This document shows positions 2,628-35,987 of a stretch of DNA of 64,000 bases, piece after piece. The notes under the pieces are model-generated. The model was not told the DNA's origin. It was given only the letters and a program-made list of their open reading frames with translations, and ran no database searches. How positions within the stretch are numbered: position 1 is the first letter of the stretch; each line of letters starts with the position of its first letter. A program made the translations under genes and the position numbers. Origin of the DNA: Rhynchopus sp. YZ270_cl-10 (lineage: Eukaryota); contig OZ037843.1 in the NCBI GenBank assembly GCA_964035575.1, positions 1,612,001 to 1,676,000 on the forward strand, given 5' to 3'.

Positions 2628-5135
2628 ATGCCGTCTCCTGTGTTCTTCGCGTACTTCCGCCGTGCGCTGCTGACGTTCATCTTTGTTGTGATCGGGATGG
2701 CTCTGTACCTGGGACATGAGACTGACGCTGCTGTGCATACTGTGCATCTGCTTGTCCTTTCGACGACGGCGTACCTGATGGGTGAGCGTGCGGCGGGGAC
2801 AAGCGGCGACCGCTTCTCGCTGACGGACGTGCTGGTGTGGGTGGTGTACCTTGCTGTGCTGTTCTTTGTCTTGGTCACGTCCACACTCCTGACGGTGGAC
2901 AAGCCGTACATCACGCTGTGCAACCTGGGGATCTACTCATGCGCTGTGTTCTACACGGGAGGGAAGGTTGCTCTTGTGACGCTGTTGGTGGAGCGCCTCC
3001 GCATTCTGCGTGATGCCTCGCGTGACGCACCGCTCTCGAGGTGGAAGGACCGGCATTGGATGGTGATGATGGGCTTCATGCTGCCGTACATTGTGAGCGG
3101 GTTGCTCCTTGTGACGAATGTAGAGGCTGTCATCAGTGAGACGCACACATGCTTCCTCGCGTTGAAGCAACGTGCCACTTACGCAGTGTTGACGTACAAC
3201 ACGTTCTTCTCTGTCATCATCTCGGGATGCTTCTTCTGGGAGATCTTGAAGCTGCAGCGCCAAGGCAGTGTCATGATGCTGCGCGTGAGCGTCAGGGGCA
3301 TCAGTCCAACAGGGTCGGCCTTCTCGTGTCTGCTCTACCTCGCCTTCAGCACAATGAACGTAGGTTCCTTCGTCTTCAATGATCATCAGCACTACCGCAC
3401 CTGTCTGACGCTGTGTGTGCTGGATTTGTGGGTGGGCATGTTCGTGACAGACTACATGTCAGGGCTGGTGGCAGACATAGAGAAGGTGCGCACAGACGCG
3501 GAGGAGGCAATGGACGCAATCGCCGTGATGGAGCTGGACAGACTGGAGCATCTGGAGCGTGAGCCAACGTCGCGTGTGCAGGCGTCGCTTGCGCGCATCA
3601 TCGGCCTGCTGCGGGACATCAAGCAGTTCATCCCAAGCACGTACCTTGCGTCGCTCAAGGCAGACAGCGAAGATGGGATTGAGGACGACACGCACCGCGT
3701 CACACTGACACGCACAGATGCACCTGGGGCAGTGTCTGGCCGTGCTGCCATTGTTTTCACAGACATTGTGTCGTCGACACAGCTGTGGGAGGCCTGTCCT
3801 GAGGGCATGGCGAAGGGCATGCGTCTGCACAACAAGACCGTCCGCGACTGCATTGCTGAGATGAACGGGTACGAGGTGAAGACGATTGGGGATTCCTTCA
3901 TGGTGTCCTTCGACACGTCGCACGAGGCAGTCAGCTTTGGTGTGCTTGTGCAGGAGCGGATGTACGGGCTCACGTGGCCACAGGAGCTTATTGAGGTGTC
4001 TTCACCACGGGGCAGCCATGAACGAGAAGTCGGCATGCAGCTGCGCATCGGTGCGAACTTTGGTGATGTCCGTGTGGAGTTCAATGGCATCACAGGACGT
4101 GCAGACTACTTCGGCCCCACGGTGAACGTTGCAGCACGCATTGAGTCACGTTGTGTTGCTGGGTCGGTGGCGATTCCTGAGGGCATGTACCGCGAGTGGG
4201 AGGGTGTGCAGGACGACGCTGCTGCGGGCATCGGCATGGGCACCACGGAGCTCAAGGGTGTGGCGAGGACAGTGGCGCTTGTTGCTGTCGTGCCTGCAGC
4301 GCTGCCGTGGCGTGAGAAGGACGTCTTGACGGTGCTGCGGCAGTATGCTCCGGCAGCCTGTGAGGACGCTGTGAAGAGTCCCAACAACTGCCTCGTCACT
4401 AAAGCATGCCTTCCCGACATGTGCGGCAAAGCAGCCACACTGGCACGCATTGAGCTGCGTTTCAATGAAGCAGAAACCCTTACAGACCCGATAACCACGT
4501 TGAACGATAAGATCAGCAAAGTAATCAGCTGCCTGGAACGGACAGAAGGCTCCGTCACAGCCCTCTTCGGGTCGCACGTGATTGCGGGTTGGAACACATC
4601 ACGTCGGAACATGAACCACGTGCAAAGCTCCTTCGTGTTTTGCCAGATGCTGCACAAGTCGACAATGTGGGCCTACTCAGACGGTCCTGTGTTTGTCGGG
4701 CTGTGCACGGGCACAGTGTACGCAGCGACACTGGGTGCAGCAGGACAGCGCTTCATGACAAGCATTGGCGCGTGCCTGGGGATGGCAGGACACGTGCTGC
4801 ACCAGAGCATCAACCACAGGGTGTTTGCGCTGTACTGCACACTTCTCGACACACCTGTGACATATTCGGCTTCGACACGTCCTGTGCTGAGGTGGGATGT
4901 GAAGCGTCTTCATAGCACAGCGACTGTTGATGTGCACGAGGTGTGCACGGAGCTGGCGGGACTGCAGAATTTAGAAGACTTTGGCGAGGAACCGAAGTGG
5001 GGCTGGACACAGGATTACTGGGTTGCTTTTGCCGAAGGGAACGAGAAGTTGATCCGAAGCAGCTGCGAGGGTGAGGACGCACTCCTACGCATGCTTGACT
5101 TTGTTGACAATGGCCCACTCGAGCTCATGTGCTGA
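2628..5135 (+). CDS. GPCR-like multi-TM receptor adenylate cyclase, paralog 1 (835 aa; 8 TM + HAMP-like linker + class III AC + degenerate cyclase domain)
   Basis: Class III AC motifs AIVFTDIVSST, YEVKTIGDSFM, LRIG and ADYFGPTVNVAARIE. About 8 hydrophobic helices lie in the first ~280 aa. The start was set at the ATG (MPSPVFF) shared by all five paralogs. Confidence 0.92.
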   Translation: MPSPVFFAYFRRALLTFIFVVIGMALYLGHETDAAVHTVHLLVLSTTAYLMGERAAGTSGDRFSLTDVLVWVVYLAVLFFVLVTSTLLTVDKPYITLCNLGIYSCAVFYTGGKVALVTLLVERLRILRDASRDAPLSRWKDRHWMVMMGFMLPYIVSGLLLVTNVEAVISETHTCFLALKQRATYAVLTYNTFFSVIISGCFFWEILKLQRQGSVMMLRVSVRGISPTGSAFSCLLYLAFSTMNVGSFVFNDHQHYRTCLTLCVLDLWVGMFVTDYMSGLVADIEKVRTDAEEAMDAIAVMELDRLEHLEREPTSRVQASLARIIGLLRDIKQFIPSTYLASLKADSEDGIEDDTHRVTLTRTDAPGAVSGRAAIVFTDIVSSTQLWEACPEGMAKGMRLHNKTVRDCIAEMNGYEVKTIGDSFMVSFDTSHEAVSFGVLVQERMYGLTWPQELIEVSSPRGSHEREVGMQLRIGANFGDVRVEFNGITGRADYFGPTVNVAARIESRCVAGSVAIPEGMYREWEGVQDDAAAGIGMGTTELKGVARTVALVAVVPAALPWREKDVLTVLRQYAPAACEDAVKSPNNCLVTKACLPDMCGKAATLARIELRFNEAETLTDPITTLNDKISKVISCLERTEGSVTALFGSHVIAGWNTSRRNMNHVQSSFVFCQMLHKSTMWAYSDGPVFVGLCTGTVYAATLGAAGQRFMTSIGACLGMAGHVLHQSINHRVFALYCTLLDTPVTYSASTRPVLRWDVKRLHSTATVDVHEVCTELAGLQNLEDFGEEPKWGWTQDYWVAFAEGNEKLIRSSCEGEDALLRMLDFVDNGPLELMC

Positions 5136-6210
5136 TGCGAGCGCCCCTTGTCTGTGACAGTGTTCATCTGCAAAGTGGCAGGTGGTCGTGCTGTTCTGTT
5201 CCTTTTGTATTGTCGCAGAACGTAATTTATAAACGTTATACACCCGTCCCCTTTTCAGGTGACTACTCAAGCCTAAGGGTCTTAGAGGCATAGTACTTAA
5301 CTTTGCGTCTTTTCTTTTTTGATAAAATAATTGAATGATTCAATCTTTCTTTCTAATATTTATGCGCAAGGCATAACCCTTATAAACATGAGAATATAGT
5401 TGTGGGCTCTTACGGCTTTTGCCCGAACTGCGAAGTTCACCAACTGTGTCTTCTTGTTTGTTTTGTTCTTGCTGTAGTTTTACGGTTTCACACACCAGGA
5501 ACGGAGGGAGGGGGGACGGTTTCCCTTTTCTTTTCTCTCTCGGATACGCTGACTGTGTGCATGTATTTCCCCCTTATGTGGTAATTAATCCTCGTGGGGT
5601 TTGTTTATGATTGTGTTCCTTATCTTTTTTTTGTGTTTTGTATTTAATTACTCCAGTGCCAGCGTCCGGAGATGAGCGGTGGGGCGTTTTTGCACTTTCC
5701 ACTTCTCTCTCTCTCTCTCTTTCTTCTTTTTTTTTGTCCCGATCCCTAATTGCTTCGTGGTAGCCCCAAGGGAAGAAACCCTTCTTCAGAAGCCAGGTAG
5801 CGCATGCTGCTCCCCACCCCCCTCTACACTGTCCACGTAGATCCCCCCCACTACGTAAGGAGTCATCGCTCTCCCAAATCAAAAAGCATTTAGATGGCAT
5901 ATGCGCGTTTACGAACTGGGCCACTGATCGCCTTTAGGGATTGCTCTTTGTTGGTTTTCGCAACATTCGTGCTCACAAGCCGTCTTTTGGTTTTTTGTTC
6001 CCTGCCACGAGAGTACTCATATTATTTGAACAAGATATACAACAAAAAAGCTTGCGTTTCTGTTATCCCTAGTTTCGACAGCGAAACGTTTCCCCATGTA
6101 TTGCATGGGTGGTTCCGTGCATATCATAGAACCTGGCACCTTGTGTGTCTTCAAAAACTAAAAGCGTTTTGTGTAGTTTTGAAGGAAGGAAAAATAAAAT
6201 CTCTGTACAC

Positions 6211-7300
6211 TGGTGCTTCCCGGGGGGTGTGCATTTCACAAATTTTCACAAAATGTGACAAGTTTTCACAAATTTTCACCACACGAAAACTGCTACAAAA
6301 TTGTGAAGGCTGGCGAAAAGTGGTGAAAAAATGTGAAAAAATGTGAAAAGTTGTGAATAGTTGTGAAAAGTTGTGAATTGATTTTTTTTTGGGGTATGCG
6401 GGACTTCCCCTAGTCCTCAGGGTCTAAACGCCCCTGCCCTCTTTTATGCAAGTTCACCCTGGCAGGGTATATAAATGCTGGGTCAGGCTGGCCCCCCTAT
6501 GCTATGATGGGTGCTCGCACCCGGAGCATAAATGGCCAGCGGTCAGGCCAGAGTCGCTCTACGGAGTCTCTCTGCCACGCCTTTGGGTTACGGTGTGCTG
6601 CCTGTAAGGACGTCCATGTATATCCCTAAGAGAACGGGTGAGGCCCAACTGTCGGGTCAGCATGGGGCGCCAAGAGAGAGATGTTGTGACCCCCCCGCCC
6701 ACCCCTTTTTGTGTTTTTGGGTTTCTGCTCTCTTGTGTAGACTATCGTGCATCAAGCGTTGGGTGCAGCGAACTGCAGTACCTGTAAGCTCACAACTCTT
6801 CAACGGAAGGTGGGCCGCCGGCTGTCGAGCGGTTGTGTACCGCCCTCGTTCTCTTACGGTACGGGCCAGTCATTAGGTTTCCTTTTTACATCTTCTGTTG
6901 TTGGCCGCAGGGTACTTGTGCTTTCATCCGGATGGCTGGCATCGTACGTGGGTCAGTCGGAGGTGCCTGCATTAATAACTTCACTTTTTTTTTTGTGAGT
7001 GCTTTTTTTTTGGGCGGGTGGTGACCCACCCATTGAGGGGCACGCTGGGATTCACAAGATAGAACGTGATGTGGTGTACCAGTGTACCTGTGTACTGTGT
7101 GATGTGCGGAAATGACGAGAACTTGTCCATTTCGGCAAATTGACCCCACCACTGGCCGGACGGATTCCGGAAATGCAAATGCCGGCGTTTAAAAGCTTCA
7201 CCAACGAGAGAAAAAAGGGTAGTGAAAAGTTGTGAATAGTTGTGAAAAGTTGTGAATTGAATTGAAAATTTGTGAAATGCATACCCCCCGGGAAGCACCA
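6211..7300. mobile_element. Non-autonomous TIR element with ~40-bp TIRs and internal (TTGTGAA)-type repeats
   Basis: tggtgcttcccggggggtgtgcatttcacaaattttca / tgaaaatttgtgaaatgcataccccccgggaagcacca. The TSD is not clear. A partial relative lies at ~45860-45917. Confidence 0.7.
6895..6979 (+). repeat. Dispersed hairpin-forming repeat family A (copies ~231-292, 6895-6979, 38907-38999, 44665-44718, 49415-49508)
   Basis: Shared core catccggatggctggcatcgtac(a)gtgggtcagtcggaggtgcctgcat. All five copies are on the + strand. Confidence 0.85.
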
Positions 7301-9280: not shown

Positions 9281-9484
9281 TAACCAAAATTTGTATCAAT
9301 CAAGAACTTGTCCATTTTATCGAAATGACCCCACTACAGTGAGGGTAGAGCTCGGAAAGCCCGAAAAAGGGCAAAAAACCCCACCCAAAAAAAGGAAAAA
9401 AACGGGAACATAAATCCAGAATTTTGCTGTTTTTTCCGAGAACAAGGGGCAACCCTGGACTTATTGCTGCTTTTATTTTCAAAA

Positions 9485-12589: not shown

Positions 12590-15097
12590 ATGCCGTCTCC
12601 TGTGTTCTTCGCGTACTTCCGCCGTGCGCTGCTCGCGTTCGTCTTTGTTGCGATCGGGATGGCTCTGTACCTTGGAGGTGAGACCGACGCTGCTTGTCAG
12701 ACTGTGCACCTGATGGCGATAGCGACGACTGCGTACCTGATGGGTGAGCGTGCGGCAGGGACGAGCGGCGATCACTCGTCTCTCACAGACTTCCTTGTGT
12801 GGTCCGTGTATCTGTGTGTGCTGTGCTTTGTGCTTGTCACGTCCACAGTTCTGACGGTCGACAAGCCGTACATGGGGCTGTGCTACCTGACTGGCTACGC
12901 GTGTGCAGTGTTCTACGCAGGCGGGAAGGTTGCTCTTGTGACGCTGTTGGTGGAGCGCCTCCGCATTCTGCGTGATGCCTCGCGTGACGCACCGCTCTCG
13001 AGGTGGAAGGACCGGCATTGGCTTGCTATGATGGGTTTGATGGTGCCGTATCTGGTATCGGGGTCGATACTGCTGTCGCAGGTGAATGTGTACCTGACGC
13101 CAACGCGTACGTGCTTTCTCTTGCTCTCGTTGCTGGCGACGTACCCTGTCCTGTCGTACAACACCTTCTTCACGATCATTGTGTCTGGCTGCTTCTTCTG
13201 GGAGACGTGGAAGCTGAAGAGCAAAGGCGGCTTATCAACACTGCGTGTGAGTCTGAGAGGTGTGAGTCCAACGGGTGCTGTGCTCTCGTGTCTCATCTAC
13301 CTCACGTGCAGCACGATGAACGTAGGTTCCTTTCTGTTCAACTCTAGACAGCACTACCGCACCTGTCTGACGCTGTGTGTGGTGGATTTGTGGGTGGGCA
13401 TGTTCGTGACAGACTACATGTCAGGGCTGGTGGCAGACATGGAGAAGGTGCGCACAGACGCGGAGGAGGCAATGGACGCAATCGCCGTGATGGAGCTGGA
13501 CAGACTGGAGCATCTGGAGCGTGAGCCAACGTCGCGTGTGCAGGCGTCGCTTGCGCGCATCATCGGCCTGCTGCGGGACATCAAGCAGTTCATTCCAAGC
13601 ACGTACCTTGCGTCGCTCAAGGCAGACAGCGAGGATGTGATTGAGGACGACGCCTACAACGTCACACTGACACGCACGGATGCACCTGGGGCAGTGTCTG
13701 GCCGTGCTGCCATTGTCTTCACAGACATTGTGTCGTCGACACAGCTGTGGGAGGCCTGTCCTGAGGGCATGGCGAAGGGCATGCGTCTGCACAACAAGAC
13801 CGTCCGCGACTGCATTGCTGAGATGAACGGGTACGAGGTGAAGACGATTGGGGATGCCTTCATGGTGTCCTTCGACACGTCGCACGAGGCAGTCAGCTTT
13901 GGTGTGCTTGTGCAGGAGCGGATGTACGGGCTCACGTGGCCACAGGAGTTGGTGGACTTCAGCCTTGCACCGAAAGAAGAGAAGGAGAGCAAGGTCGGCA
14001 TGCAGCTGCGCATCGGTGTGAATGCAGGCGACACGCGTGTGGAGTTCAACGGCATCACAGGACGTGCAGACTACTTCGGCCCCACGGTGAACGTTGCAGC
14101 ACGCATTGAGTCACGTTGTGTTGCTGGGTCGGTGGCAGCACCACAGGCGGTCTACGACGAGTGGAAGACGGCGTGTGGCGACAGCGGGCTCAGCGTTGCG
14201 ATGGGTGACATTGAGCTGAAGGGTGTGGGCCAGAAGGTGTCTTTGGTGTGTGTGATTCCCTCTTCGATGCCGTGGCGTGAGAAGGCTGTCAAGGCACTAC
14301 TGCGGAGACCAAGCCTTACTGGGAAACTTGATCCAAAACGTTCGATGTGTTCCACAAGGTCTTCAGCGCACACAGCTACAAGGGTGCACGAGCGCAAGCA
14401 AGACTTCGAAGGCAAACTCGCAACAGTGGCACGCATTGAGCTGCGCTTCACCGAAACCTCAGGAGACCCCATCGGGAGCTTGAACGAGAAGCTTGGGAAG
14501 GTGATCGGCTCGCTGGAACGGACAGAAGGCTCCATCACAGCCCTCTTCGGGTCGCACGTGATTGCGGGTTGGAACACATCACGTCGGAACATGAACCACG
14601 TGCAAAGCTCCTTCGTGTTCTGCCAGATGCTGCACAAGTCGACAATGTGGGCCTACTCAGACGGCCCTGTGTTTGTCGGGCTGTGCACGGGCACAGTGTA
14701 CGCAGCGACACTGGGTGCAGCAGGACAGCGCTTCATGACAAGCATTGGCGCGTGCCTGGGGATGGCAGGACACGTGCTGCACCGGAGCATCAACCACAGG
14801 GTGTTTGCGCTGTACTGCACACTTCTCGACACACCTGTGACATATTCGGCTTCGACACGTCCTGTGCTGAGGTGGGATGTGAAGCGTATTCGTGGGACAG
14901 CGACTGCTGATGTGCACGAGGTGTGCCTTGAGACCAATGACTTTGAGGAGGAGCTGGAGTGGGGCTGGACACAGGATTACTGGACTGCTTTTGCTGAGGG
15001 AAATGAGAAGGAGATTCGTGAGAAGTGCGAAAGCAACACGTGTTTGATGGACATGCTTAACACTGTGTGCGACACGTCTGTGTTCCTTTATTGCTGA
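12590..15097 (+). CDS. GPCR-like multi-TM receptor adenylate cyclase, paralog 2 (835 aa)
   Basis: Same architecture and catalytic motifs (FTDIVSST, VKTIGDAFM, DYFGPTVNVAAR) as paralog 1. Confidence 0.92.
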   Translation: MPSPVFFAYFRRALLAFVFVAIGMALYLGGETDAACQTVHLMAIATTAYLMGERAAGTSGDHSSLTDFLVWSVYLCVLCFVLVTSTVLTVDKPYMGLCYLTGYACAVFYAGGKVALVTLLVERLRILRDASRDAPLSRWKDRHWLAMMGLMVPYLVSGSILLSQVNVYLTPTRTCFLLLSLLATYPVLSYNTFFTIIVSGCFFWETWKLKSKGGLSTLRVSLRGVSPTGAVLSCLIYLTCSTMNVGSFLFNSRQHYRTCLTLCVVDLWVGMFVTDYMSGLVADMEKVRTDAEEAMDAIAVMELDRLEHLEREPTSRVQASLARIIGLLRDIKQFIPSTYLASLKADSEDVIEDDAYNVTLTRTDAPGAVSGRAAIVFTDIVSSTQLWEACPEGMAKGMRLHNKTVRDCIAEMNGYEVKTIGDAFMVSFDTSHEAVSFGVLVQERMYGLTWPQELVDFSLAPKEEKESKVGMQLRIGVNAGDTRVEFNGITGRADYFGPTVNVAARIESRCVAGSVAAPQAVYDEWKTACGDSGLSVAMGDIELKGVGQKVSLVCVIPSSMPWREKAVKALLRRPSLTGKLDPKRSMCSTRSSAHTATRVHERKQDFEGKLATVARIELRFTETSGDPIGSLNEKLGKVIGSLERTEGSITALFGSHVIAGWNTSRRNMNHVQSSFVFCQMLHKSTMWAYSDGPVFVGLCTGTVYAATLGAAGQRFMTSIGACLGMAGHVLHRSINHRVFALYCTLLDTPVTYSASTRPVLRWDVKRIRGTATADVHEVCLETNDFEEELEWGWTQDYWTAFAEGNEKEIREKCESNTCLMDMLNTVCDTSVFLYC

Positions 15098-17033: not shown

Positions 17034-17070
<37 letters not shown>

Positions 17071-20090: not shown

Positions 20091-22598
20091 ATGCCGTCTC
20101 CTGTGTTCTTCGCGTACTTCCGCCGTGCGCTGCTGACGTCCGTCTTTGTTGCGATCGGGATGGCTCTGTACCTTGGAGGTGAGACTGACACTGCTGTGCA
20201 GACTGTGCACCTGATGGCGATAGCGACGACTGCGTACCTTATGGGTGAGCGTGCGGCAGGGACGAGCGGCGATCACTCCTCGTATATGGGGATGTTGGTG
20301 TGGGTGGTGTACCTGTGTGTGTTTCTCTTCGTCTGCATCTCCTCGACTGTGCTGACGATAGACAAGCCGTACATGGGGATCTGCAGTCTAGTCATCAACG
20401 CGTGTGCAGTGTTCTACGTAGGAGGGAAGTTTGCTTTTGTGATGCTGTTGGCGGAGCGCCTCCGCATTCTGCGTGATGCCTCGCGTGACGCACCACTCTC
20501 GAGGTGGAAGGACCGGCATTGGAAGATGATGATGGGCTTCATGGTGCCGTACCTCGCAGTGGGTCTCATCCTCATCACGCATGCGGGTGCCCGCATCAGC
20601 CCGACGTACACGTGCTTTCTTCAGATCAAGCCCCTCGCGAGCATCTCGGTGGTCTCGTACAATGCCTCCTTCTCGTTCGTCATAGCAGGCTGCTTCTTCT
20701 GGGAGACAGTGAAGCTGCAGAAGCTGCAGCACAAGTCGTTGCGTGTGAGTCTGAGAGGTGTGAGTCCAGCTGGTGCCGTCATCACATGTCTTCTCTTCGC
20801 ACTGTTCAGCACAATGAGCATAGGTTCCTTCGCATTCCAGGAGCACCAGCACTACCGCACCTGTATGACATTCTGTGTGCTGGACAAGTGGTTCGGCATG
20901 TTCGTGACAGACTACATGTCAGGGCTGGTGGCAGACATGGAGAAGGTGCGCACAGACGCGGAGGAGGCAATGGACGCAATCGCCGTGATGGAGCTGGACA
21001 GACTGGAGCATCTGGAGCGTGAGCCAACGTCGCGTGTGCAGGCGTCGCTTGCGCGCATCATCGGCCTGCTGCGGGACATTAAGCAGTTCATCCCAAGCAC
21101 GTACCTTGCGTCGCTCAAGGCTGACAGTGAGGATGTGATTGAGGACGACGCCTACAACGTCACACTGACACGCACAGATGCACCTGGGACAGTGTCTGGC
21201 CGTGCTGCCATTGTCTTCACAGACATTGTGTCGTCGACACAGCTGTGGGAGGCCTGTCCTGAGGGCATGGCGAAGGGCATGCGTCTGCACAACAAGACCG
21301 TCCGCGACTGCATTGCTGAGATGAACGGGTACGAGGTGAAGACGATTGGGGATGCCTTCATGGTGTCCTTCGACACGTCGCACGAGGCAGTCAGCTTTGG
21401 TGTGCTTGTGCAGGAGCGGATGTACGGGCTCACGTGGCCGCAGGAGTTGGTGGACTTCAGCCTTGCACCGAAAGAAGAGAAGGAGAGCAAGGTCGGCATG
21501 CAGCTGCGCATCGGTGTGAATGCAGGCGACACGCGTGTGGAGTTCAACGGCATCACAGGACGTGCAGACTACTTCGGCCCCACGGTGAACGTTGCAGCAC
21601 GCATTGAGTCACGTTGTGTTGCTGGGTCGGTGGCAGCACCACAGGCGGTCTACGACGAGTGGAAGACGGCGTGTGGCGACAGCGGGCTCAGCGTTGCGAT
21701 GGGTGACATTGAGCTGAAGGGTGTGGGCCAGAAGGTGTCTTTGGTGTGTGTGATTCCCTCTTCGATGCCGTGGCGTGAGAAGGCTGTCAAGGCACTACTG
21801 CGGAGACCAAGTCTTACTGGGAAACTTGATCCAAAACGTTCGATGTGTTCCACAACGAAGTCCTCAGCGCACACACCGACAAGGGTGCACGACCGCACGC
21901 AAGACTTCGAAGGCAAACTCGCAACAGTGGCACGCATTGAGCTGCGCTTCACCGAAACCTCAGGAGACCCCATCGGGAGCTTGAACGAGAAGCTTGGGAA
22001 GGTGATCGGCTCGCTGGAACGGACAGAAGGCTCCGTCACAGCCCTCTTCGGGTCGCACGTGATTGCGGGTTGGAACACATCACGTCGGAACATGAACCAC
22101 GTGCAAAGCTCCTTCGTGTTCTGCCAGATGCTGCACAAGTCGACAATGTGGGCCTACTCAGACGGTCCTGTGTTTGTCGGGCTGTGCACGGGCACAGTGT
22201 ACGCAGCGACACTGGGTGCAGCAGGACAGCGCTTCATGACAAGCATTGGCGCGTGCCTGGGGATGGCAGGACACGTGCTGCACCGGAGCATCAACCACAG
22301 GGTGTTTGCGCTGTACTGCACACTTCTCGACACACCTGTGACATATTCGACTTCGACACGTCCTGTGCTGAGGTGGGATGTGAAGCGTCTTCGTGGGACA
22401 GCGACTGTTGATGTGCACGAGGTGTGCCTTGAGACCAATGACTTTGAGGATGAGCTGGAGTGGGGCTGGACACAGGATTACTGGACTGCTTTTGCTGAGG
22501 GGAATGAGAAGGAGATTCGTGAGAAGTGCGAATGCAACACGTGTTTGATGGACATGCTTAACACTGTGTGCGACACGTCTGTGTTCCTTTATTGCTGA
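20091..22598 (+). CDS. GPCR-like multi-TM receptor adenylate cyclase, paralog 3 (835 aa)
   Basis: Same architecture and catalytic motifs. A ttcccctAG acceptor-like site lies just upstream of the ATG. Confidence 0.92.
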   Translation: MPSPVFFAYFRRALLTSVFVAIGMALYLGGETDTAVQTVHLMAIATTAYLMGERAAGTSGDHSSYMGMLVWVVYLCVFLFVCISSTVLTIDKPYMGICSLVINACAVFYVGGKFAFVMLLAERLRILRDASRDAPLSRWKDRHWKMMMGFMVPYLAVGLILITHAGARISPTYTCFLQIKPLASISVVSYNASFSFVIAGCFFWETVKLQKLQHKSLRVSLRGVSPAGAVITCLLFALFSTMSIGSFAFQEHQHYRTCMTFCVLDKWFGMFVTDYMSGLVADMEKVRTDAEEAMDAIAVMELDRLEHLEREPTSRVQASLARIIGLLRDIKQFIPSTYLASLKADSEDVIEDDAYNVTLTRTDAPGTVSGRAAIVFTDIVSSTQLWEACPEGMAKGMRLHNKTVRDCIAEMNGYEVKTIGDAFMVSFDTSHEAVSFGVLVQERMYGLTWPQELVDFSLAPKEEKESKVGMQLRIGVNAGDTRVEFNGITGRADYFGPTVNVAARIESRCVAGSVAAPQAVYDEWKTACGDSGLSVAMGDIELKGVGQKVSLVCVIPSSMPWREKAVKALLRRPSLTGKLDPKRSMCSTTKSSAHTPTRVHDRTQDFEGKLATVARIELRFTETSGDPIGSLNEKLGKVIGSLERTEGSVTALFGSHVIAGWNTSRRNMNHVQSSFVFCQMLHKSTMWAYSDGPVFVGLCTGTVYAATLGAAGQRFMTSIGACLGMAGHVLHRSINHRVFALYCTLLDTPVTYSTSTRPVLRWDVKRLRGTATVDVHEVCLETNDFEDELEWGWTQDYWTAFAEGNEKEIREKCECNTCLMDMLNTVCDTSVFLYC

Positions 22599-24257: not shown

Positions 24258-26893
24258 CAGTGTTCCTAACCCTAGTTTTAAACGAAACGTTTTAAACGTT
24301 TTAAACTCTAAACGTTTTAAACTGTTTTAAACGTTTTAAACTCGAATAAAAAACGGTGGTGAATTTTGGCTTTTCAGGCAAAAAAAAAAATTTTTTTTTT
24401 TTTTTTTCAGGCAAAAAAAAAATGTCTTTGCGAAAAAAATGTGGTATTTTCCTCTTTGCTGAACTTTTCAGTGGCAGCAGGCACGGTGTAATTAGGTGTA
24501 GTAGGTGTAAATTATGCGCATGCATGTTAATGCTGCGGTGTAGCCAACCCCCCACCCCCCTTAGTCAGACACATCTTCTATCTTCAGGCAAGAGTGCACT
24601 GCTGACAGCATCTGGAGCTTCTCTGCTGACAGACGGCACCTTCTGCCCCCCGAGAGCCAGCCCATCGAGCTGAACGTACGCTCCACCTCCGCCGTCGAGG
24701 GCCGGATCGCCACGATGGGGATGGCGATGCGCGCCAGCGTACACCCCTTCTTCGCAAGCACAGTCCACCACTCCTCCGGCGTCACCTTCCCCGCAATCTT
24801 CCAGAAGCTCTCCTTCGAGAAGAACTCCAGCTTGTTGGAGAGGAGGAGGAGGTCGGAGCTTTCCCCGCCGCACGCCTTCACGTACCGTTCGGCGGCTTCC
24901 TCAACTTCCGCAGGGGGGGAGTAGCCCTCGAAGAAGGCCTTCGCATCGCCAGCACCCTCCCGGGAATACTCCACGGGGGTCATCACGGTGGCGGCACACA
25001 GCCAGTCCTGTGACTCGTACTTCTCCCTCCGCCCAGCCGCCTTCTGCGCCCAGTCTCGCATCTTCTTCCGGTCTCCTGCAGGCACCGTTCCCTTCGCAGC
25101 GCAGGCAATGATCTTCTTCTCAACGGCAGAAAAGATAGGGATGATCATGCCTGCCCTGCCCTTGTTCCCCTGCAGGAGGTTTATCGCCACAGAGACGAAG
25201 GCCATAGCCTCGAGTACGACCGCGAAGGTGTCCCACTTATCCAGCAGCTCCTTGAGGGAGGGGCACTGCGCCGCAATTGTGTTGTCGTCATTCATGAGGA
25301 TGAGCGACGTCTTGGCTTCACACATCACTTTCCAGCACTCATGCGAGCTGGTCCAGCGGGTGAGGGTGGGGCGTGGGGGCTTCTTTGCCTGAGGGCGGCC
25401 ATTCTGGACCTGGAGCTCAGCAAACTTCTTCCCGAGAGCCTCGACATTGCGAATGGAGGAGGTGGTGGTGCTCAACAGATCTACCAGCCAAGCGAAGGCG
25501 TTCTTCACTTCCTTCCCCGCGCTCTTCCTCACCCCGAAGGCATCATTCAGGACACGGTTCAGGGTGTGAGTAGAACAAATGAGAAGCACGCACTTATGCT
25601 CGTTCTCCCCCCTGGCTTCATTGATTTCGGTAGCAAAAACCTTGCACCCTGCAGCTGTAGTGGTGTCCCCATCACACACTAGCCCACTCAACTTATCTTT
25701 TTCTGGCATCTCATGCAGGTGCGTACGGATCTCCTCCGCATTGTGCGAGTCCTCCTCCAAAACTTTTGTGCTTACAGGGCGGGCATCCGCACCATCTCCG
25801 GAGGCGACAAGGGTGAACACCTTCTCGTCGTTGTGCGCCTTCCAGCCATCAACGTATACCGAGATGTGCAGGCTCTGTGCTAGGGCTGCTCTCACAGGAA
25901 CCATGACCCTGTCATACTCAGCCTTAAGTACCCTGTTGCCCATCTGGTACCCGCTGGGAATTTTTGCCACATCAAATGCTGGCACCAAGCGCTTGATCAG
26001 CCTCTGCAGGTATATTGACTCTGCAGTGCTGAACGAGAGGCCGTGCGCAAAAAAGAGGCGACCAAGGTCAGCTTCGATGTTTGCGTAGTCCTCGTCAGTC
26101 AGAGCTGACGGATCACCCCGCTTGCGCTTCGCGCGTCGCGCCTGAGTTTGGGGAGTCTGCTCCGAAGATTGTGACGATGCCACTGGGGGAGACTGTGTCT
26201 GGGACACGGGTGGCTGTGAGGATGGCAACACCTCAGGGGATTCCGCCTGACCTGGGGGGGGAAGAAGCACCGGGGGAGCCTGGTCCGGGGGAGTCTCCTG
26301 CGAAGATGCTTGCGGCGCCCCATCATCCTCATCATCCTCCACGCCCTTGGCCTTCCGCACGATCGCTGCAGGGGCGTCGCTGCACTGGCTCAGGTGTTTG
26401 CGCATACGTGTTCCTGTTGCGCTCAGCACACACTCGCCGCAGTGGTTGCACTTAGCATCCTTTTCGGAGCTGAAGTGTGCACGCGACCAGCATGGCGGGC
26501 GACCCATAATTGTCTTGTGTATGTCTGTTCGTGTTGGGTGAACATACTGTACAAAAAAATGCAGTCCTGGGAAAATTTAAGACGGGGGTCTATCGGAAGG
26601 TTTTCGCGCATTCATTAGGGTACCGTACAGGAAACAAGTTGCCATAGCAGGAGAAACGAAGAAAAACCAGGCTAAATTGACCATAGATACACCAAAACTA
26701 TGATTTTTGATACAGAAAAAAAAAAATTCGAAAAATCCCCCCACTTTTTTTACGTTTTTTTGTGCAGAACTGCCACCCGTTTTTTATTCGAGTTTAAAAC
26801 GTTTAAAACGTTTAAAACGTTTAAAACGCGTTTTAAATAATTTAAAACGTTTAAAACGTTTTAAACGTTTTAAACGCAAAATTAGGAACACTG
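24258..26893 (-). mobile_element. Intact autonomous hAT DNA transposon
   Basis: Perfect 12-bp TIRs CAGTGTTCCTAA/TTAGGAACACTG, a perfect 8-bp TSD GGTGGGGG (24250-24257, 26894-26901), subterminal AAACGTTT arrays at both ends and an uninterrupted transposase ORF. Confidence 0.95.
24561..26507 (-). CDS. hAT-family transposase (648 aa)
   Basis: BED-type zinc finger (W..AHF..CNHC..HLSQC), catalytic D (VYVDGW), D (VCDGD), CxxH (CSTH), an RW motif (TRWTS) and the hAT dimerisation region with E (WW...PSTAEVERTFS). Confidence 0.93.
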   Translation of the reverse strand: MGRPPCWSRAHFSSEKDAKCNHCGECVLSATGTRMRKHLSQCSDAPAAIVRKAKGVEDDEDDGAPQASSQETPPDQAPPVLLPPPGQAESPEVLPSSQPPVSQTQSPPVASSQSSEQTPQTQARRAKRKRGDPSALTDEDYANIEADLGRLFFAHGLSFSTAESIYLQRLIKRLVPAFDVAKIPSGYQMGNRVLKAEYDRVMVPVRAALAQSLHISVYVDGWKAHNDEKVFTLVASGDGADARPVSTKVLEEDSHNAEEIRTHLHEMPEKDKLSGLVCDGDTTTAAGCKVFATEINEARGENEHKCVLLICSTHTLNRVLNDAFGVRKSAGKEVKNAFAWLVDLLSTTTSSIRNVEALGKKFAELQVQNGRPQAKKPPRPTLTRWTSSHECWKVMCEAKTSLILMNDDNTIAAQCPSLKELLDKWDTFAVVLEAMAFVSVAINLLQGNKGRAGMIIPIFSAVEKKIIACAAKGTVPAGDRKKMRDWAQKAAGRREKYESQDWLCAATVMTPVEYSREGAGDAKAFFEGYSPPAEVEEAAERYVKACGGESSDLLLLSNKLEFFSKESFWKIAGKVTPEEWWTVLAKKGCTLARIAIPIVAIRPSTAEVERTFSSMGWLSGGRRCRLSAEKLQMLSAVHSCLKIEDVSD

Positions 26894-29762: not shown

Positions 29763-32267
29763 ATGCCGTCTCCTGTGTTCTTCGCGTACTTCCGCCGTGC
29801 GCTGCTTACGTCCGTCTTTGTTGCGATCGGGATGGCTCTGTACCTTGGAGGTGAGACTGACGCTGCTTGTCAGACTGTGCACCTGATGGCGATAGCGACG
29901 ACTGCGTACCTGATGGGTGAGCGTGCGGCAGGGACGAGCGGCGATCACTCGTCTCTCACAGACTTCCTTGTGTGGTCCGTGTATCTGTGTGTGCTAGGAT
30001 TTGTGCTTGTCACGTCCACAGTTCTGACGGTGGACAAGCCGTACATGGGGCTATGCTACCTCTCTGTCTACTCGTGTGGGGTTTTCTACGGGGGTGGGAA
30101 GGTTGCTCTTGTGATGCTGTTGGTGGAGCGCCTCCGCATTCTGCGTGATGCCTCGCGTGACCAAGCGCTCTCGAGGTGGAAGGACCGGCATTGGATGGTG
30201 ATGATGGGCTTCATGCTTCCTTACCTCGCGTCAGCGGCAATACTGATGGCTAACATCGATGCGGTACTGAGCCCAACGCGTACGTGCTTTATTTTGATCT
30301 CGTTGCTGGCGACGTACCCTGTCCTGTCGTACAACACCTTCTTCACGATCATTGTGTCTGGCTGCTTCTTCTGGGAGACGTGGAAGCTGAAGCGCAAAGG
30401 CGGCTTATCAACACTGCGTGTGAGTCTGAGAGGTGTGAGTCCGACGGGTGCTCTGCTCTCGTGTCTCATCTACCTCACGTGCAGCACGATGAACGTAGGT
30501 TCCTTTCTGTTCAACTCTAGACAGCACTACCGCACCTGTCTGACGCTGTGTGTGATGGATTTGTGGGTGGGCATGTTCGTGACAGACTACATGTCAGGGC
30601 TGGTGGCAGACATGGAGAAGGTGCGCACAGACGCGGAGGAGGCAATGGACGCAATCGCCGTGATGGAGCTGGACAGACTGGAGCATCTGGAGCGTGAGCC
30701 AACGTCGCGTGTGCAGGCGTCGCTTGCGCGCATCATCGGCCTGCTGCGGGACATTAAGCAGTTCATCCCAAGCACGTACCTTGCGTCGCTCAAGGCTGAC
30801 AGTGAGGATGTGATTGAGGACGACGCCTACAACGTCACACTGACACGCACAGATGCACCTGGGACAGTGTCTGGCCGTGCTGCCATTGTCTTCACAGACA
30901 TTGTGTCGTCGACACAGCTGTGGGAGGCCTGTCCTGAGGGCATGGCGAAGGGCATGCGTCTGCACAACAAGACCGTCCGCGACTGCATTGCTGAGATGAA
31001 CGGGTACGAGGTGAAGACGATTGGGGATGCCTTCATGGTGTCCTTCGACACGTCGCACGAGGCAGTCAGCTTTGGTGTGCTTGTGCAGGAGCGGATGTAC
31101 GGGCTCACGTGGCCGCAGGAGTTGGTGGACTTCAGCCTTGCACCGAAAGAAGAGAAGGAGAGCAAGGTCGGCATGCAGCTGCGCATCGGTGTGAATGCAG
31201 GCGACACGCGTGTGGAGTTCAACGGCATCACAGGACGTGCAGACTACTTCGGCCCCACGGTGAACGTTGCAGCACGCATTGAGTCACGTTGTGTTGCTGG
31301 GTCGGTGGCAGCACCACAGGCGGTCTACGACGAGTGGAAGACGGCGTGTGGCGACAGCGGGCTCAGCGTTGCGATGGGTGACATTGAGCTGAAGGGTGTG
31401 GGCCAGAAGGTGTCTTTGGTGTGTGTGATTCCCTCTTCGATGCCGTGGCGTGAGAAGGCTGTCAAGGCACTACTGCGGAGACCAAGCCTTATTGAGCCGA
31501 AGCGTGTGTCCAAGTGTTCTACAACGAAGTCTTCAGTGCAGACAGCCACAAGGGTGCACGAGCGCAAGCAAGACTTCGAAGGCAAACTCGCAACAGTGGC
31601 ACGCATTGAGCTGCGCTTCACCGAAACCTCAGGAGACCCCATCGGGAGCTTGAACGAGAAGCTTGGGAAGGTGATCGGCTCGCTGGAACGGACAGAAGGC
31701 TCCGTCACAGCCCTCTTCGGGTCGCACGTGATTGCGGGTTGGAACACATCACGTCGGAACATGAACCACGTGCAAAGCTCCTTCGTGTTCTGCCAGATGC
31801 TGCACAAGTCGACAATGTGGGCCTACTCAGACGGCCCTGTGTTTGTCGGGCTGTGCACGGGCACAGTGTACGCAGCGACACTGGGTGCAGCAGGACAGCG
31901 CTTCATGACAAGCATTGGCGCGTGCCTGGGGATGGCAGGACACGTGCTGCACCGGAGCATCAACCACAGGGTGTTTGCGCTGTACTGCACATTGCTCGAC
32001 ACACCTGTGACATATTCGGCTTCGACACGTCCTGTGCTGAGGTGGGATGTGAAGCGTCTTCGTGGGACAGCGACTGTTGATGTGCACGAGGTGTGCCTTG
32101 AGACCAATGACTTTGAGGATGAGCTGGAGTGGGGCTGGACACAGGATTACTGGACTGCTTTTGCTGAGGGGAATGAGAAGCAGATCAGGGACAAAGGCCT
32201 CAATGACGCAACACTGATGAAGATAGTGAACACTGTGTGCGACACGTCTGTGTTCCTTTATTGCTGA
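29763..32267 (+). CDS. GPCR-like multi-TM receptor adenylate cyclase, paralog 4 (834 aa)
   Basis: Same architecture and catalytic motifs. Confidence 0.92.
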   Translation: MPSPVFFAYFRRALLTSVFVAIGMALYLGGETDAACQTVHLMAIATTAYLMGERAAGTSGDHSSLTDFLVWSVYLCVLGFVLVTSTVLTVDKPYMGLCYLSVYSCGVFYGGGKVALVMLLVERLRILRDASRDQALSRWKDRHWMVMMGFMLPYLASAAILMANIDAVLSPTRTCFILISLLATYPVLSYNTFFTIIVSGCFFWETWKLKRKGGLSTLRVSLRGVSPTGALLSCLIYLTCSTMNVGSFLFNSRQHYRTCLTLCVMDLWVGMFVTDYMSGLVADMEKVRTDAEEAMDAIAVMELDRLEHLEREPTSRVQASLARIIGLLRDIKQFIPSTYLASLKADSEDVIEDDAYNVTLTRTDAPGTVSGRAAIVFTDIVSSTQLWEACPEGMAKGMRLHNKTVRDCIAEMNGYEVKTIGDAFMVSFDTSHEAVSFGVLVQERMYGLTWPQELVDFSLAPKEEKESKVGMQLRIGVNAGDTRVEFNGITGRADYFGPTVNVAARIESRCVAGSVAAPQAVYDEWKTACGDSGLSVAMGDIELKGVGQKVSLVCVIPSSMPWREKAVKALLRRPSLIEPKRVSKCSTTKSSVQTATRVHERKQDFEGKLATVARIELRFTETSGDPIGSLNEKLGKVIGSLERTEGSVTALFGSHVIAGWNTSRRNMNHVQSSFVFCQMLHKSTMWAYSDGPVFVGLCTGTVYAATLGAAGQRFMTSIGACLGMAGHVLHRSINHRVFALYCTLLDTPVTYSASTRPVLRWDVKRLRGTATVDVHEVCLETNDFEDELEWGWTQDYWTAFAEGNEKQIRDKGLNDATLMKIVNTVCDTSVFLYC

Positions 32268-33476: not shown

Positions 33477-35987
33477 ATGCCGTCTCCTGTGTTCTTCGCG
33501 TACTTCCGCCGTGCGCTGCTCGCGTTCGTCTTTGTTGCGATCGGGATGGCTCTGTACCTTGGAGGTGAGACCCATGCAGCCACGATGACCGTGCATCTGC
33601 TCGTCCTTTCGACGACAACGTACCTGATGGGTGAGCGTGCGGCGGGGACGAGCGGCGACCACTCCTCGTATATGGGGATGTTGGTGTGGGTGGTGTACCT
33701 GTGTGTGCTGTGCTTTGTGCTGGTCACGTCCATGATGCTCTCAGTGGACAAGCCGTACCTGGGGCTGTGCTACCTCTCTGTGTACACGTGCTCCACTGCC
33801 TACGCAGGCGGGAAGGTTGCTCTTGTGACGCTGTTGGTGGAGCGCCTCCGCATTCTGCGTGATGCCTCGCGTGACGCACCGCTCTCGAGGTGGAAGGACC
33901 GGCATTGGCTTGCCATGATGGGTTTGATGGTGCCGTACCTCGGGTGCGGATCGATACTGCTCGCGAACATACACGCCAACATCAGTAAGACGAATACGTG
34001 CTTCCTGAACATACAGCAAATATCCACTATTTCGATGCTTTCGTGGAACACTTTTGCGTCGCTCGTCATCGGCTTCTCCTTCGTCTGGGAGACTGTGAAG
34101 CTGCAGAGGTTCAGAGATGGGTCCAAATCCTTGCGTGTGAGTCTGAGAGGTGTGCATCCAGCTGGTGCCGTCGTCGCCTGCCTGATTTACATCACCTTCT
34201 CCTGCGCCAACATCATCTCCCTCATCTACAACGAGCATCAGCACTACCGCACCTGTCTGACGCTGTGTGTTTGTGATAAGTGGTTCGGCATGTTCGTGAC
34301 AGACTACATGTCAGGGCTGGTGGCAGACATGGAGAAGGTGCGCACAGACGCGGAGGAGGCAATGGACGCAATCGCCGTGATGGAGCTGGACAGACTGGAG
34401 CATCTGGAGCGTGAGCCAACGTCGCGTGTGCAGGCGTCGCTTGCGCGCATCATCGGCCTGCTGCGGGACATTAAGCAGTTCATCCCAAGCACGTACCTTG
34501 CGTCGCTCAAGGCTGACAGTGAGGATGTGATTGAGGACGACGCCTACAACGTCACACTGACACGCACAGATGCACCTGGGACAGTGTCTGGCCGTGCTGC
34601 CATTGTCTTCACAGACATTGTGTCGTCGACACAGCTGTGGGAGGCCTGTCCTGAGGGCATGGCGAAGGGCATGCGTCTGCACAACAAGACCGTCCGCGAC
34701 TGCATTGCTGAGATGAACGGGTACGAGGTGAAGACGATTGGGGATGCCTTCATGGTGTCCTTCGACACGTCGCACGAGGCAGTCAGCTTTGGTGTGCTTG
34801 TGCAGGAGCGGATGTACGGGCTCACGTGGCCGCAGGAGTTGGTGGACTTCAGCCTTGCACCGAAAGAAGAGAAGGAGAGCAAGGTCGGCATGCAGCTGCG
34901 CATCGGTGTGAATGCAGGCGACACGCGTGTGGAGTTCAACGGCATCACAGGACGTGCAGACTACTTCGGCCCCACGGTGAACGTTGCAGCACGCATTGAG
35001 TCACGTTGTGTTGCTGGGTCGGTGGCAGCACCACAGGCGGTCTACGACGAGTGGAAGACGGCGTGTGGCGACAGCGGGCTCAGCGTTGCGATGGGTGACA
35101 TTGAGCTGAAGGGTGTGGGCCAGAAGGTGTCTTTGGTGTGTGTGATTCCCTCTTCGATGCCGTGGCGTGAGAAGGCTGTCAAGGCACTACTGCGGAGACC
35201 AAGCCTTACTGGGAAACTTGATCCAAAACGTTCGATGTGTTCCACAAGGTCTTCAGCGCACACAGCTACAAGGGTGCACGAGCGCAAGCAAGACTTCGAA
35301 GGCAAACTCGCAACAGTGGCACGCATTGAGCTGCGCTTCACCGAAACCTCAGGAGACCCCATCGGGAGCTTGAACGAGAAGCTTGGGAAGGTGATCGGCT
35401 CGCTGGAACGGACAGAAGGCTCCATCACAGCCCTCTTCGGGTCGCACGTGATTGCGGGTTGGAACACATCACGTCGGAACATGAACCACGTGCAAAGCTC
35501 CTTCGTGTTCTGCCAGATGCTGCACAAGTCGACAATGTGGGCCTACTCAGACGGCCCTGTGTTTGTCGGGCTGTGCACGGGCACAGTGTACGCAGCGACA
35601 CTGGGTGCAGCAGGACAGCGCTTCATGACAAGCATTGGCGCGTGCCTGGGGATGGCAGGACACGTGCTGCACCGGAGCATCAACCACAGGGTGTTTGCGC
35701 TGTACTGCACACTTCTCGACACACCTGTGACATATTCGGCTTCGACACGTCCTGTGCTGAGGTGGGATGTGAAGCGTATTCGTGGGACAGCGACTGCTGA
35801 TGTGCACGAGGTGTGCCTTGAGACCAATGACTTTGAGGAGGAGCTGGAGTGGGGCTGGACACAGGATTACTGGACTGCTTTTGCTGAGGGGAATGAGAAG
35901 CAGATTCGTGAGAAGTGCGAAAGCAACACGTGTTTGATGGACATGCTTAACACTGTGTGTGACACGTCTGTGTTCCTTTATTGCTGA
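33477..35987 (+). CDS. GPCR-like multi-TM receptor adenylate cyclase, paralog 5 (836 aa)
   Basis: Same architecture and catalytic motifs. The C-terminal half is almost identical to paralog 2. Confidence 0.92.
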   Translation: MPSPVFFAYFRRALLAFVFVAIGMALYLGGETHAATMTVHLLVLSTTTYLMGERAAGTSGDHSSYMGMLVWVVYLCVLCFVLVTSMMLSVDKPYLGLCYLSVYTCSTAYAGGKVALVTLLVERLRILRDASRDAPLSRWKDRHWLAMMGLMVPYLGCGSILLANIHANISKTNTCFLNIQQISTISMLSWNTFASLVIGFSFVWETVKLQRFRDGSKSLRVSLRGVHPAGAVVACLIYITFSCANIISLIYNEHQHYRTCLTLCVCDKWFGMFVTDYMSGLVADMEKVRTDAEEAMDAIAVMELDRLEHLEREPTSRVQASLARIIGLLRDIKQFIPSTYLASLKADSEDVIEDDAYNVTLTRTDAPGTVSGRAAIVFTDIVSSTQLWEACPEGMAKGMRLHNKTVRDCIAEMNGYEVKTIGDAFMVSFDTSHEAVSFGVLVQERMYGLTWPQELVDFSLAPKEEKESKVGMQLRIGVNAGDTRVEFNGITGRADYFGPTVNVAARIESRCVAGSVAAPQAVYDEWKTACGDSGLSVAMGDIELKGVGQKVSLVCVIPSSMPWREKAVKALLRRPSLTGKLDPKRSMCSTRSSAHTATRVHERKQDFEGKLATVARIELRFTETSGDPIGSLNEKLGKVIGSLERTEGSITALFGSHVIAGWNTSRRNMNHVQSSFVFCQMLHKSTMWAYSDGPVFVGLCTGTVYAATLGAAGQRFMTSIGACLGMAGHVLHRSINHRVFALYCTLLDTPVTYSASTRPVLRWDVKRIRGTATADVHEVCLETNDFEEELEWGWTQDYWTAFAEGNEKQIREKCESNTCLMDMLNTVCDTSVFLYC

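What the first reader, a model, noticed from the sequence alone, without database searches (positions are those of the whole stretch)
2628..35987. Tandem array of five GPCR-fold receptors fused directly to adenylate cyclase: a candidate one-component, G-protein-independent chemosensory system
Seen in the sequence: each protein has one extra N-terminal helix and seven further hydrophobic helices. In all five, a Cys at the start of the putative TM3 (L/I-C) is followed by E-R, with the Arg exactly 25 residues after the Cys (e.g. CNLGIYSCAVFYTGGKVALVTLLVER), and a second invariant Cys lies in the next extracellular loop (TCF). Established: class A GPCRs have this C3.25 to R3.50 (D/E-R-Y) spacing and a TM3-ECL2 disulfide. 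After TM7 come a HAMP-like segment (AMDAIAVMEL...LARIIGLLRDIKQFIP) and a class III cyclase with both metal-binding Asp, the ATP-specifying Lys/Asp pair (VKTIGD, ADYFG) and the transition-state Asn/Arg. Trypanosomatid receptor cyclases have a similar catalytic domain but one TM and a large ectodomain, and those organisms lack canonical GPCR/G-protein signalling. GPCR-enzyme fusions are described mainly in oomycetes. Inference: ligand binding in the 7TM pocket drives cAMP synthesis through the HAMP linker with no G protein.
Basis: partly seen in the sequence, partly recalled or inferred. Interest (0 to 1): 0.92.

Follow-up and report, generated by a model that had tools for sequence, protein, structure and literature searches.

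The report
GPCR-fold receptors wired directly to cyclase
Five neighbouring genes each join a predicted seven-helix, GPCR-like membrane domain of an unnamed family to an adenylate cyclase domain, with varied outer faces and near-identical enzyme halves, so they likely form a small repertoire of receptors that make cAMP without an intermediate G protein.

Summary
Five intronless same-strand ORFs (834-836 aa) each carry an extra helix plus a seven-helix bundle (AlphaFold pLDDT 90; all 47 Foldseek rows are GPCRs), a degenerate HAMP-like linker and a trypanosome-type class III cyclase with all six catalytic residues. The bundle is not class A: it has no 7tm Pfam match, lacks CWxP and NPxxY, and microbial rhodopsins and TMEM87A fit as well. 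It belongs to an unnamed family found without a cyclase in fungi and a stramenopile and fused to cyclase-type domains in diplonemids and one euglenid. It is one of many sensors plugged into a shared diplonemid cyclase chassis. Among paralogues the outer helix halves vary (79/117 vs 50/130 positions), while linker and cyclase are homogenised (dS 0.004-0.03 in genes 2-5), as expected of a chemoreceptor array. Direct ligand control of the cyclase and G-protein independence are inferred, not shown. Predicted GPCR-cyclase fusions are already described in oomycetes and were thought restricted to them. This looks like a separate, HAMP-linked version. Verdict: new variant of a known kind.

The parts
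2628..5135 (+). Gene 1 (P0001, 835 aa): TM0 + 7TM, HAMP-like linker, class III cyclase, pseudo-cyclase; the most divergent copy
12590..15097 (+). Gene 2 (P0002, 835 aa), same architecture; reference copy for residue numbers
12599..12673 (+). Gene 2 extra N-terminal helix TM0 (residues 4-28)
   Evidence: DSSP of model; hydropathy
12683..13423 (+). Gene 2 seven-helix bundle (residues 32-278) with family-conserved C98, C105, Y109, K113, E122, R138, C175, N244, C259, C263, D266
13424..13624 (+). Gene 2 degenerate HAMP-like helical hairpin and the following pre-cyclase helix (residues 279-345)
13682..14269 (+). Gene 2 class III adenylate cyclase domain (about residues 365-560), all six catalytic or specificity residues present
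14405..14959 (+). Gene 2 second cyclase-fold domain without catalytic residues (pseudo-cyclase, about residues 606-790)
20091..22598 (+). Gene 3 (P0003, 835 aa)
24316..26817 (-). hAT-family transposon lying inside the cluster (ORF 24561-26507; 41-nt inverted arms 24316-24356 and 26777-26817); not part of the receptor system
29763..32267 (+). Gene 4 (P0004, 834 aa)
33477..35987 (+). Gene 5 (P0005, 836 aa)

Best explanation
These five genes likely encode one-component receptor adenylate cyclases of a probable diplonemid, in which a predicted GPCR-fold seven-helix domain would sense an outside small molecule and, through a HAMP-like linker continuing from helix 7, would switch the fused cyclase. 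Shown: the domain order, the intact catalytic residues, the degenerate second cyclase domain, the modular chassis shared with Cache, solute-binding and other sensors, and the pattern of variable outer halves on homogenised cytosolic halves. Predicted: the eight-helix fold. Inferred: cytosolic N-terminus with both Cys outside; homodimer formation through the HAMP and cyclase domains (class III cyclases and HAMP domains work as dimers, established knowledge); ligand binding in the outer pocket; different specificities among paralogues; a regulatory or scaffolding role for the pseudo-cyclase; no need for a G protein.
For: Fold: pLDDT 90.2, pTM 0.86; 47 of 47 listed Foldseek rows are GPCRs, best E 3.8e-4; VIA Z 13.6-16.8 to seven-helix bundles over residues about 25-290. 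TM7 runs straight into the linker helix (H256-278, H280-299). Our linker profile matches 27 of 73 other cyclase relatives at E<1e-3 and 0 of 73 reversed controls; two of the matching linkers hit Pfam HAMP weakly (E 0.0037 and 0.01, below cut-off). The same cyclase chassis carries dCache, solute-binding, Bmp and ammonium-transporter modules, so the N-terminal slot is a sensor slot. Six catalytic positions are kept in 67-69 of 69 aligned rows. Variable positions: 79 of 117 in outer halves against 50 of 130 in inner halves (Fisher P 7e-6) and 1 of 67 in the linker. dS among genes 2-5 is 0.52 in the 7TM but 0.004 in the cyclase. Precedent that a membrane receptor can control a fused class III cyclase through HAMP: Tsr/Tar-Rv3645 chimeras (PMC4821796, passages).
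Against: No ligand, activity, expression or localisation data. The linker itself has no Pfam HAMP match and lacks the usual first Pro and second-helix Glu seen in the HAMP-positive relatives. Foldseek TM-scores are modest (0.33-0.53), and microbial rhodopsins and TMEM87A score as high as GPCRs. dN/dS is below 1 in the variable segments (7TM 0.23/0.52), so positive selection is not shown. The euglenid relative has only the degenerate cyclase domain, so the fusion does not always carry its own catalyst. In Dictyostelium ACR, deleting a seven-helix anchor left 40% of activity and still rescued the mutant (PMC3009899, abstract). The outer/inner boundaries were set by me from the model and an assumed topology.
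Confidence: 0.6

Rival explanations
1. The seven-helix domain is mainly an anchor, dimerisation or targeting module, and the cyclase is controlled by something else (the pseudo-cyclase, partner proteins, ions or pH).
For: Fold similarity shows no function. Precedent of Dictyostelium ACR, whose 7 TM helices are dispensable for rescue (PMC3009899 abstract). No positive selection shown.
Against: A passive anchor does not explain why outer halves stay divergent while short cytosolic tracts between them are homogenised (TM3-inner and ICL2 dS 0.05-0.06 between segments at 0.7 and 1.4), nor why the domain sits in the slot that known sensor modules fill.
Confidence: 0.18
2. The domain senses through a bound cofactor, metal or redox/electrophile chemistry rather than a diffusible organic ligand, using the family-wide Cys/Lys/Asp/Asn set in TM3, TM6 and TM7.
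For: C105, Y109, K113, N244, C259, C263 and D266 are kept in 51-54 of 55 rows from fungi to diplonemids; their i, i+4, i+8 spacing would put them on one helix face (inference).
Against: No coordinates were available to test whether they meet. The retinal lysine position of microbial rhodopsins (four after the TM7 Asp, recalled) is not Lys here (residue 270 is N, G, C or A in the tallied rows). The residues could simply be a second disulfide and a salt bridge.
Confidence: 0.12
3. It is a true G-protein-coupled receptor that also carries a cyclase, activated through G-alpha or signalling in both ways.
For: The unfused relatives are in fungi, which have G-alpha proteins (PMC3971589, passage). E122, R/K123 and ICL2 R138 are conserved and the cytosolic TM3/ICL2 face is the most uniform part of the 7TM. 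Such models are listed for oomycete bigrams (PMC6033456).
Against: No helix 8, NPxxY or CWxP. Kinetoplastids, the sister group, lack heterotrimeric G proteins (PMC6337498, passages). The linker hairpin directly follows TM7.
Confidence: 0.08
4. The near-identical cyclase halves are an assembly or polishing artefact and the array is overstated.
For: Identical tracts up to 1058 nt between copies.
Against: In read-derived contigs of runs X2 and X4, unique flanks and divergent 7TM pieces have depth 100-120 while shared linker/cyclase pieces have 418-499, about 4-5 fold (table 8; similar). Each gene has its own flanks.
Confidence: 0.02

Closest known systems
Oomycete GPCR-AC bigrams (van den Hoogen et al. 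2018, PMC5784254; review PMC6033456)
   Same: N-terminal seven-helix domain joined to a C-terminal adenylyl cyclase, proposed to bypass G proteins; also without experimental proof.
   Different: Reported as restricted to oomycetes and picked by TM count. No HAMP linker, extra TM0, pseudo-cyclase or diversified array is mentioned in the parts I read. No cyclase-fused hit that I could name was an oomycete; direct comparison of the 7TM domains was not possible.
Trypanosomatid receptor adenylate cyclases (GRESAG 4 / ESAG4; PMC7719234)
   Same: Closest solved catalytic domain (1fx4, 1fx2; E 1e-22 by profile; top Foldseek hits); expanded families with a variable sensor and conserved cyclase.
   Different: One TM helix and a large ectodomain there; eight TM helices, a HAMP-like linker and a pseudo-cyclase here.
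Enzyme rhodopsins (rhodopsin-guanylyl cyclase; recalled, catalytic domains 6aoa/6ao9 appear)
   Same: Seven-helix sensor plus an extra N-terminal helix, helical linker, class III cyclase: a proven one-component design (recalled).
   Different: Light-sensing type I rhodopsin with a retinal lysine and GTP specificity; here no such lysine, a TM3/ECL2 Cys pair and the ATP-type Lys/Asp pair.
HAMP-linked class III cyclases of bacteria (Rv3645) and euglenids (PMC4821796, PMC6366073)
   Same: Membrane module, HAMP, class III cyclase; direct trans-membrane control shown in chimeras.
   Different: Their membrane modules are 2TM-Cache or 6TM anchors, not GPCR-fold bundles.
Class A (rhodopsin-like) GPCRs
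   Same: Fold; Cys at the top of TM3 25 residues before an E-R pair; ECL2 Cys in a beta-hairpin.
   Different: No 7tm_1 match, no CWxP, NPxxY, conserved TM2 Asp or helix 8; the Arg is often Lys in the family.

Membership tests
GPCR/rhodopsin-type 7TM fold | Seven-helix bundle superposable on solved GPCRs | tested here: met
   (VIA Z 14.8 to H2R, rmsd 4.5, 245 aligned; Z 15.9 to Ste2, rmsd 4.8, 247 aligned)
Class A GPCR (criteria as listed in PMC12716839) | Significant match to 7tm_1 (PF00001) | tested here: not met
   no match at E<=1 in 5 of 5 paralogues or 27 of 27 family members
Class A GPCR | TM3-ECL2 cysteine pair | tested here: inconclusive
   both Cys conserved (53 and 54 of 55 rows, rest gaps) and placed in TM3 start and ECL2 hairpin; distance not measurable
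Class A GPCR | E/DRY in TM3 | tested here: inconclusive
   E constant; next residue R 31, K 22 of 55; third position never Y among the five commonest residues
Class A GPCR | CWxP in TM6, NPxxY in TM7, TM2 Asp, helix 8 | tested here: not met
   absent from the alignments; TM7 continues into the linker helix
G-protein-coupled receptor in the functional sense | Acts as exchange factor for a heterotrimeric G protein | not testable with these tools
   no genome held; supplement search for G-alpha in diplonemid tables uninformative
Microbial (type I) rhodopsin / enzyme rhodopsin | Retinal-binding lysine in TM7 and Bac_rhodopsin match | tested here: not met
   no Pfam match; position D266+4 is not Lys (motif recalled)
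Fungal GPCR classes I-XVII (Pfam-defined; table rows VIII-XVII seen in PMC13308352) and DUF6534 candidates (PMC12842992) | Match to the class-defining Pfam family | tested here: not met
   0 of 48 relatives match any GPCR-class family or DUF6534 at E<=0.05; a weak link to DUF7703 by language-model features only
Class III adenylate cyclase | Guanylate_cyc domain with two metal Asp, Lys/Asp for ATP, Asn/Arg for the transition state | tested here: met
   E 1e-23 to 1e-24 in 5 of 5; residues present
Class III adenylate cyclase | Enzymatic activity | not testable with these tools
   needs assay
HAMP domain | Pfam HAMP match or two amphipathic helices forming a parallel dimeric four-helix bundle | tested here: inconclusive
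Oomycete GPCR-AC family | Homologous 7TM domain | not testable with these tools
   no oomycete GPCR-AC sequence was returned under a name by any search

The most novel reading that the evidence does not exclude
An old, so far unnamed family of GPCR-fold receptors, orphan and unfused in fungi, has been wired in euglenozoans like a bacterial chemoreceptor: helix 7 drives a HAMP domain and a cyclase with no G protein, and the genes diversify their pockets while gene conversion keeps one common output. It would be a natural GPCR-fold chemoreceptor repertoire with a built-in cAMP read-out, and the fused form could serve to de-orphan the fungal relatives in chimeras.
Probability: 0.45. Interest if true: 0.86.

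Novelty: new variant of a known kind. Interest (0 to 1): 0.7.

Why it matters
Whether a GPCR-fold domain can control a fused enzyme directly is an open question for all GPCR bigrams; the review I read calls such direct transfer unprecedented (PMC6033456). These proteins make it testable in E. coli with a simple cAMP read-out, with five natural pocket variants on an almost identical enzyme as internal controls. They extend 7TM-cyclase fusions beyond oomycetes into an abundant marine protist group whose sensory biology is little known, and they expose a 7TM family in fungi that matches none of the Pfam-defined fungal GPCR classes.

Tried and rejected
Whole-genome search for G-alpha or more paralogues: no genome is held. 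A VIA second look at the cyclase-region model could not be run. Sequence search of the PDB with the 7TM profile: 0 hits at E<=10; with the pseudo-cyclase alone: only chance hits. Pfam and NCBIfam give no family for the 7TM. ESM Atlas: best scores for the window's 7TM 0.89, leads only; a fungal relative finds unnamed fungal clusters at 0.96-0.97. Expression: no RNA holder listed, which says nothing either way. Intramolecular pairing of the two cyclase folds as in mammalian C1/C2: the model does not adopt it (rmsd 24-27 A to AC9 and sAC, pTM 0.56); this is absence of support, not exclusion. Transfer from fungi: the diplonemid-type rows form their own clade (98/99) outside the fungal clades, with an open base; 2 short rows of 55 were left out and the Entosiphon row is a long branch of unsure place, so no donor can be named. 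Positive selection on the pocket: dN/dS below 1. Earlier findings of the scan: none. Literature: ten searches found no paper on a 7TM-cyclase fusion in diplonemids or euglenids; subscription journals are largely missing from the library, and supplements were searched only for PMC10161547.
Full report
Observation. The window holds five intronless + strand ORFs of 834-836 aa at the coordinates given, 74-77% identical to gene 1, with no further copy in the window. They are separated by 1.2-7.5 kb of repeat-rich DNA, and one spacer holds a hAT transposon. Cys98, the Glu-Arg pair at 122-123 and Cys175 are in all five. Pfam finds only Guanylate_cyc. The closest solved relatives by sequence are the T. 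brucei receptor cyclases GRESAG 4.3 and 4.1. The named relatives of the cytosolic part are Diplonema papillatum cyclases and transcripts of other diplonemids, so the source is probably a diplonemid (inference). No genome is held.

The membrane domain. A search of 1.84 billion representatives with residues 1-340 gave 49 hits. Of the 48 scanned, 3 carry a clear cyclase domain and 1 a marginal one; the other 44 have no cyclase; the 49th, P0007, has one. Look-ups of 20 proteins named Flectonema neradi (diplonemid, fused), Entosiphon sulcatum (euglenid, fused), Phycomyces, Cunninghamella, Umbelopsis, Cantharellus, Neofusicoccum and the stramenopile Heterosigma; several others have no name. A profile search among longer proteins added more basidiomycete and ascomycete proteins, all unannotated in this domain. 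The family keeps C98, C105, Y109, K113, E122, R138, C175, N244, C259, C263 and D266 in 51-54 of 55 rows; position 123 is R in 31 and K in 22. It has no Pfam, NCBIfam or PDB sequence match. In a tree of 53 rows the fused diplonemid-type sequences, plus the short P0009, form one clade (98/99) apart from the fungal clades; the base is open.

Fold. AlphaFold with 55 sequences gave pLDDT 90.2 and pTM 0.86: TM0, seven helices, a beta-hairpin carrying C175, then three linker helices that follow TM7 without a break longer than a few residues. All 47 Foldseek rows are GPCRs of classes A and C or viral GPCRs, with weak scores (best E 3.8e-4, TM 0.33-0.53). The wider VIA search is more cautious: of 50 rows, 28 are GPCRs, 19 microbial rhodopsins (two identified from recall, their titles do not say so), 2 TMEM87A and 1 a designed GPCR-like protein, all between Z 13.6 and 16.8. 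So the fold is the common seven-helix fold. The GPCR-like reading rests on the fold together with the TM3/ECL2 cysteines, the ECL2 hairpin and the Glu at the cytosolic end of TM3. Class A membership fails on 7tm_1, CWxP, NPxxY, TM2 Asp and helix 8 (criteria from PMC12716839, passages).

The cytosolic part. A search with residues 280-835 gave 79 hits, 73 of them beyond the close copies. None of the 73 has this 7TM. Their N-termini carry dCache, solute-binding, Bmp/cysteine-rich and ammonium-transporter modules, other multi-helix modules, and by precomputed accession cytochrome b5 and globin domains (names recalled). Our linker profile matches 27 of 73 at E<1e-3, against 0 of 73 reversed sequences. 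Two matching linkers hit Pfam HAMP weakly, and the alignment shows ours as a degenerate form. The first cyclase domain keeps all six key residues in 67-69 of 69 rows. A second domain, residues about 606-790, has the same strand-helix order, aligns to the first by profile (E 0.0015, low probability 17%) and lets the model align over 440-510 columns with two-domain cyclases, but none of the six positions is conserved. A profile of it finds 63 of the 73 (partly circular, as most were used to build it). The Entosiphon protein has the 7TM, the linker and this degenerate domain only (E 3e-15 to domain 2, none to domain 1). The model does not pair the two domains as in mammalian cyclases.

Evolution of the array. 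Among genes 2-5, dS is 0.004 in the cyclase, 0.007 in the pseudo-cyclase and 0.03 in the linker, but 0.52 over the 7TM and 0.9-1.4 in ECL2 and TM4; the cytosolic end of TM3 and ICL2 are again nearly uniform (0.05-0.06). Identical tracts reach 917-1058 nt, against at most 104-157 in 200 shuffles of those pairs. This points to gene conversion of the signalling half (inference). Variable positions number 79 of 117 in the outer halves and loops and 50 of 130 in the inner ones (P 7e-6). dN/dS stays below 1. Read-derived contigs show about 4-5 fold depth on the shared parts relative to unique flanks and 7TM pieces, so the near-identity is not an assembly artefact; one of these runs may be the source sample.

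Mechanism. Most likely each protein is a dimeric one-component receptor cyclase. A ligand in the outer pocket would move TM7, the HAMP-like hairpin would relay this, and the two catalytic domains would change their alignment; the pseudo-cyclase may tune or scaffold the dimer. The architecture is shown, the fold is predicted, and ligand binding, dimer, direction of control and absence of a G protein are inferred. Direct control of a class III cyclase by a fused receptor through HAMP has been shown in bacterial chimeras (PMC4821796, passages). Against over-reading, the seven helices of Dictyostelium ACR proved largely dispensable (PMC3009899, abstract).

Comparison with what is known. GPCR-AC fusions were predicted in oomycetes, four in P. 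infestans, with no homologues found elsewhere and a proposed bypass of G proteins (PMC5784254, passages and section 10; PMC6033456, first third). Euglenid cyclases with TM, HAMP and Cache domains are described (PMC6366073, passages). Trypanosomatid receptor cyclases have a single TM helix (PMC7719234, passages), and kinetoplastids lack heterotrimeric G proteins (PMC6337498, passages). The Diplonema genome paper does not use the words cyclase or GPCR in its main text; its supplement lists large cyclase orthogroups but does not settle G-alpha. Recent fungal GPCR catalogues define classes by Pfam families that our relatives do not match (PMC12842992, abstract and passages; PMC13308352, passages). 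I cannot exclude that the family equals one of the unnamed choanoflagellate groups such as GPRch3 (PMC12716839, section 18), as no sequences could be compared. Ten searches found no description of this fusion in euglenozoans.

Verdict. Real, well supported as an architecture, and a new variant of a known kind: a HAMP-linked 7TM-cyclase outside oomycetes, built on an unnamed receptor family, with an array pattern that fits chemoreceptors. Interest 0.70.

Noticed in passing
window 24316-26817 (-): Apparently intact hAT transposon (648-aa ORF with weak BED finger and hAT dimerisation domain, 41-nt inverted arms) between genes 3 and 4.
   Followed up: partly
window 38967-44006 (+): 1679-aa protein with a long Pro/Thr/Ala repeat stalk, a multi-helix hydrophobic region and a Ser-rich tail; no Pfam or NCBIfam match. 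Could be a surface or adhesion-type receptor.
   Followed up: partly
window 57622-62340 (+): 1572-aa intronless ORF with no Pfam or NCBIfam family above chance; looks like a beta-rich N-terminal part and a hydrophobic C-terminal part.
   Followed up: partly
window 47865-49217 (+): Aa_trans amino acid transporter, E 1e-61.
   Followed up: no
proteins P0097, P0100, P0106, P0125, P0126, P0135, P0149: The diplonemid cyclase chassis carries a wide set of sensors, among them a full ammonium transporter (P0125), Cache, solute-binding and haem-type domains. The ammonium transporter-cyclase fusion deserves its own look.
   Followed up: partly
proteins P0013-P0065: A widespread unannotated seven-helix family in Mucoromycota, Basidiomycota, Ascomycota and Heterosigma with constant Cys/Lys/Asp/Asn core residues and no Pfam match; candidate new fungal receptor class.
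   Followed up: partly
protein P0012 (Entosiphon sulcatum): 7TM and linker joined to the degenerate cyclase domain only, suggesting that the active cyclase was inserted in diplonemids or lost in this euglenid.
   Followed up: partly
protein P0009: 274-aa member of the diplonemid-type clade with TM0 but no linker or cyclase; stand-alone receptor or truncated gene call.
   Followed up: no
window 5600-12300, 15500-16500, 36050-36500: Spacers are filled with very high-copy repeats (read depth thousands of times that of the genes), including palindromic elements near 9878-10022 and 16077-16175.
   Followed up: no
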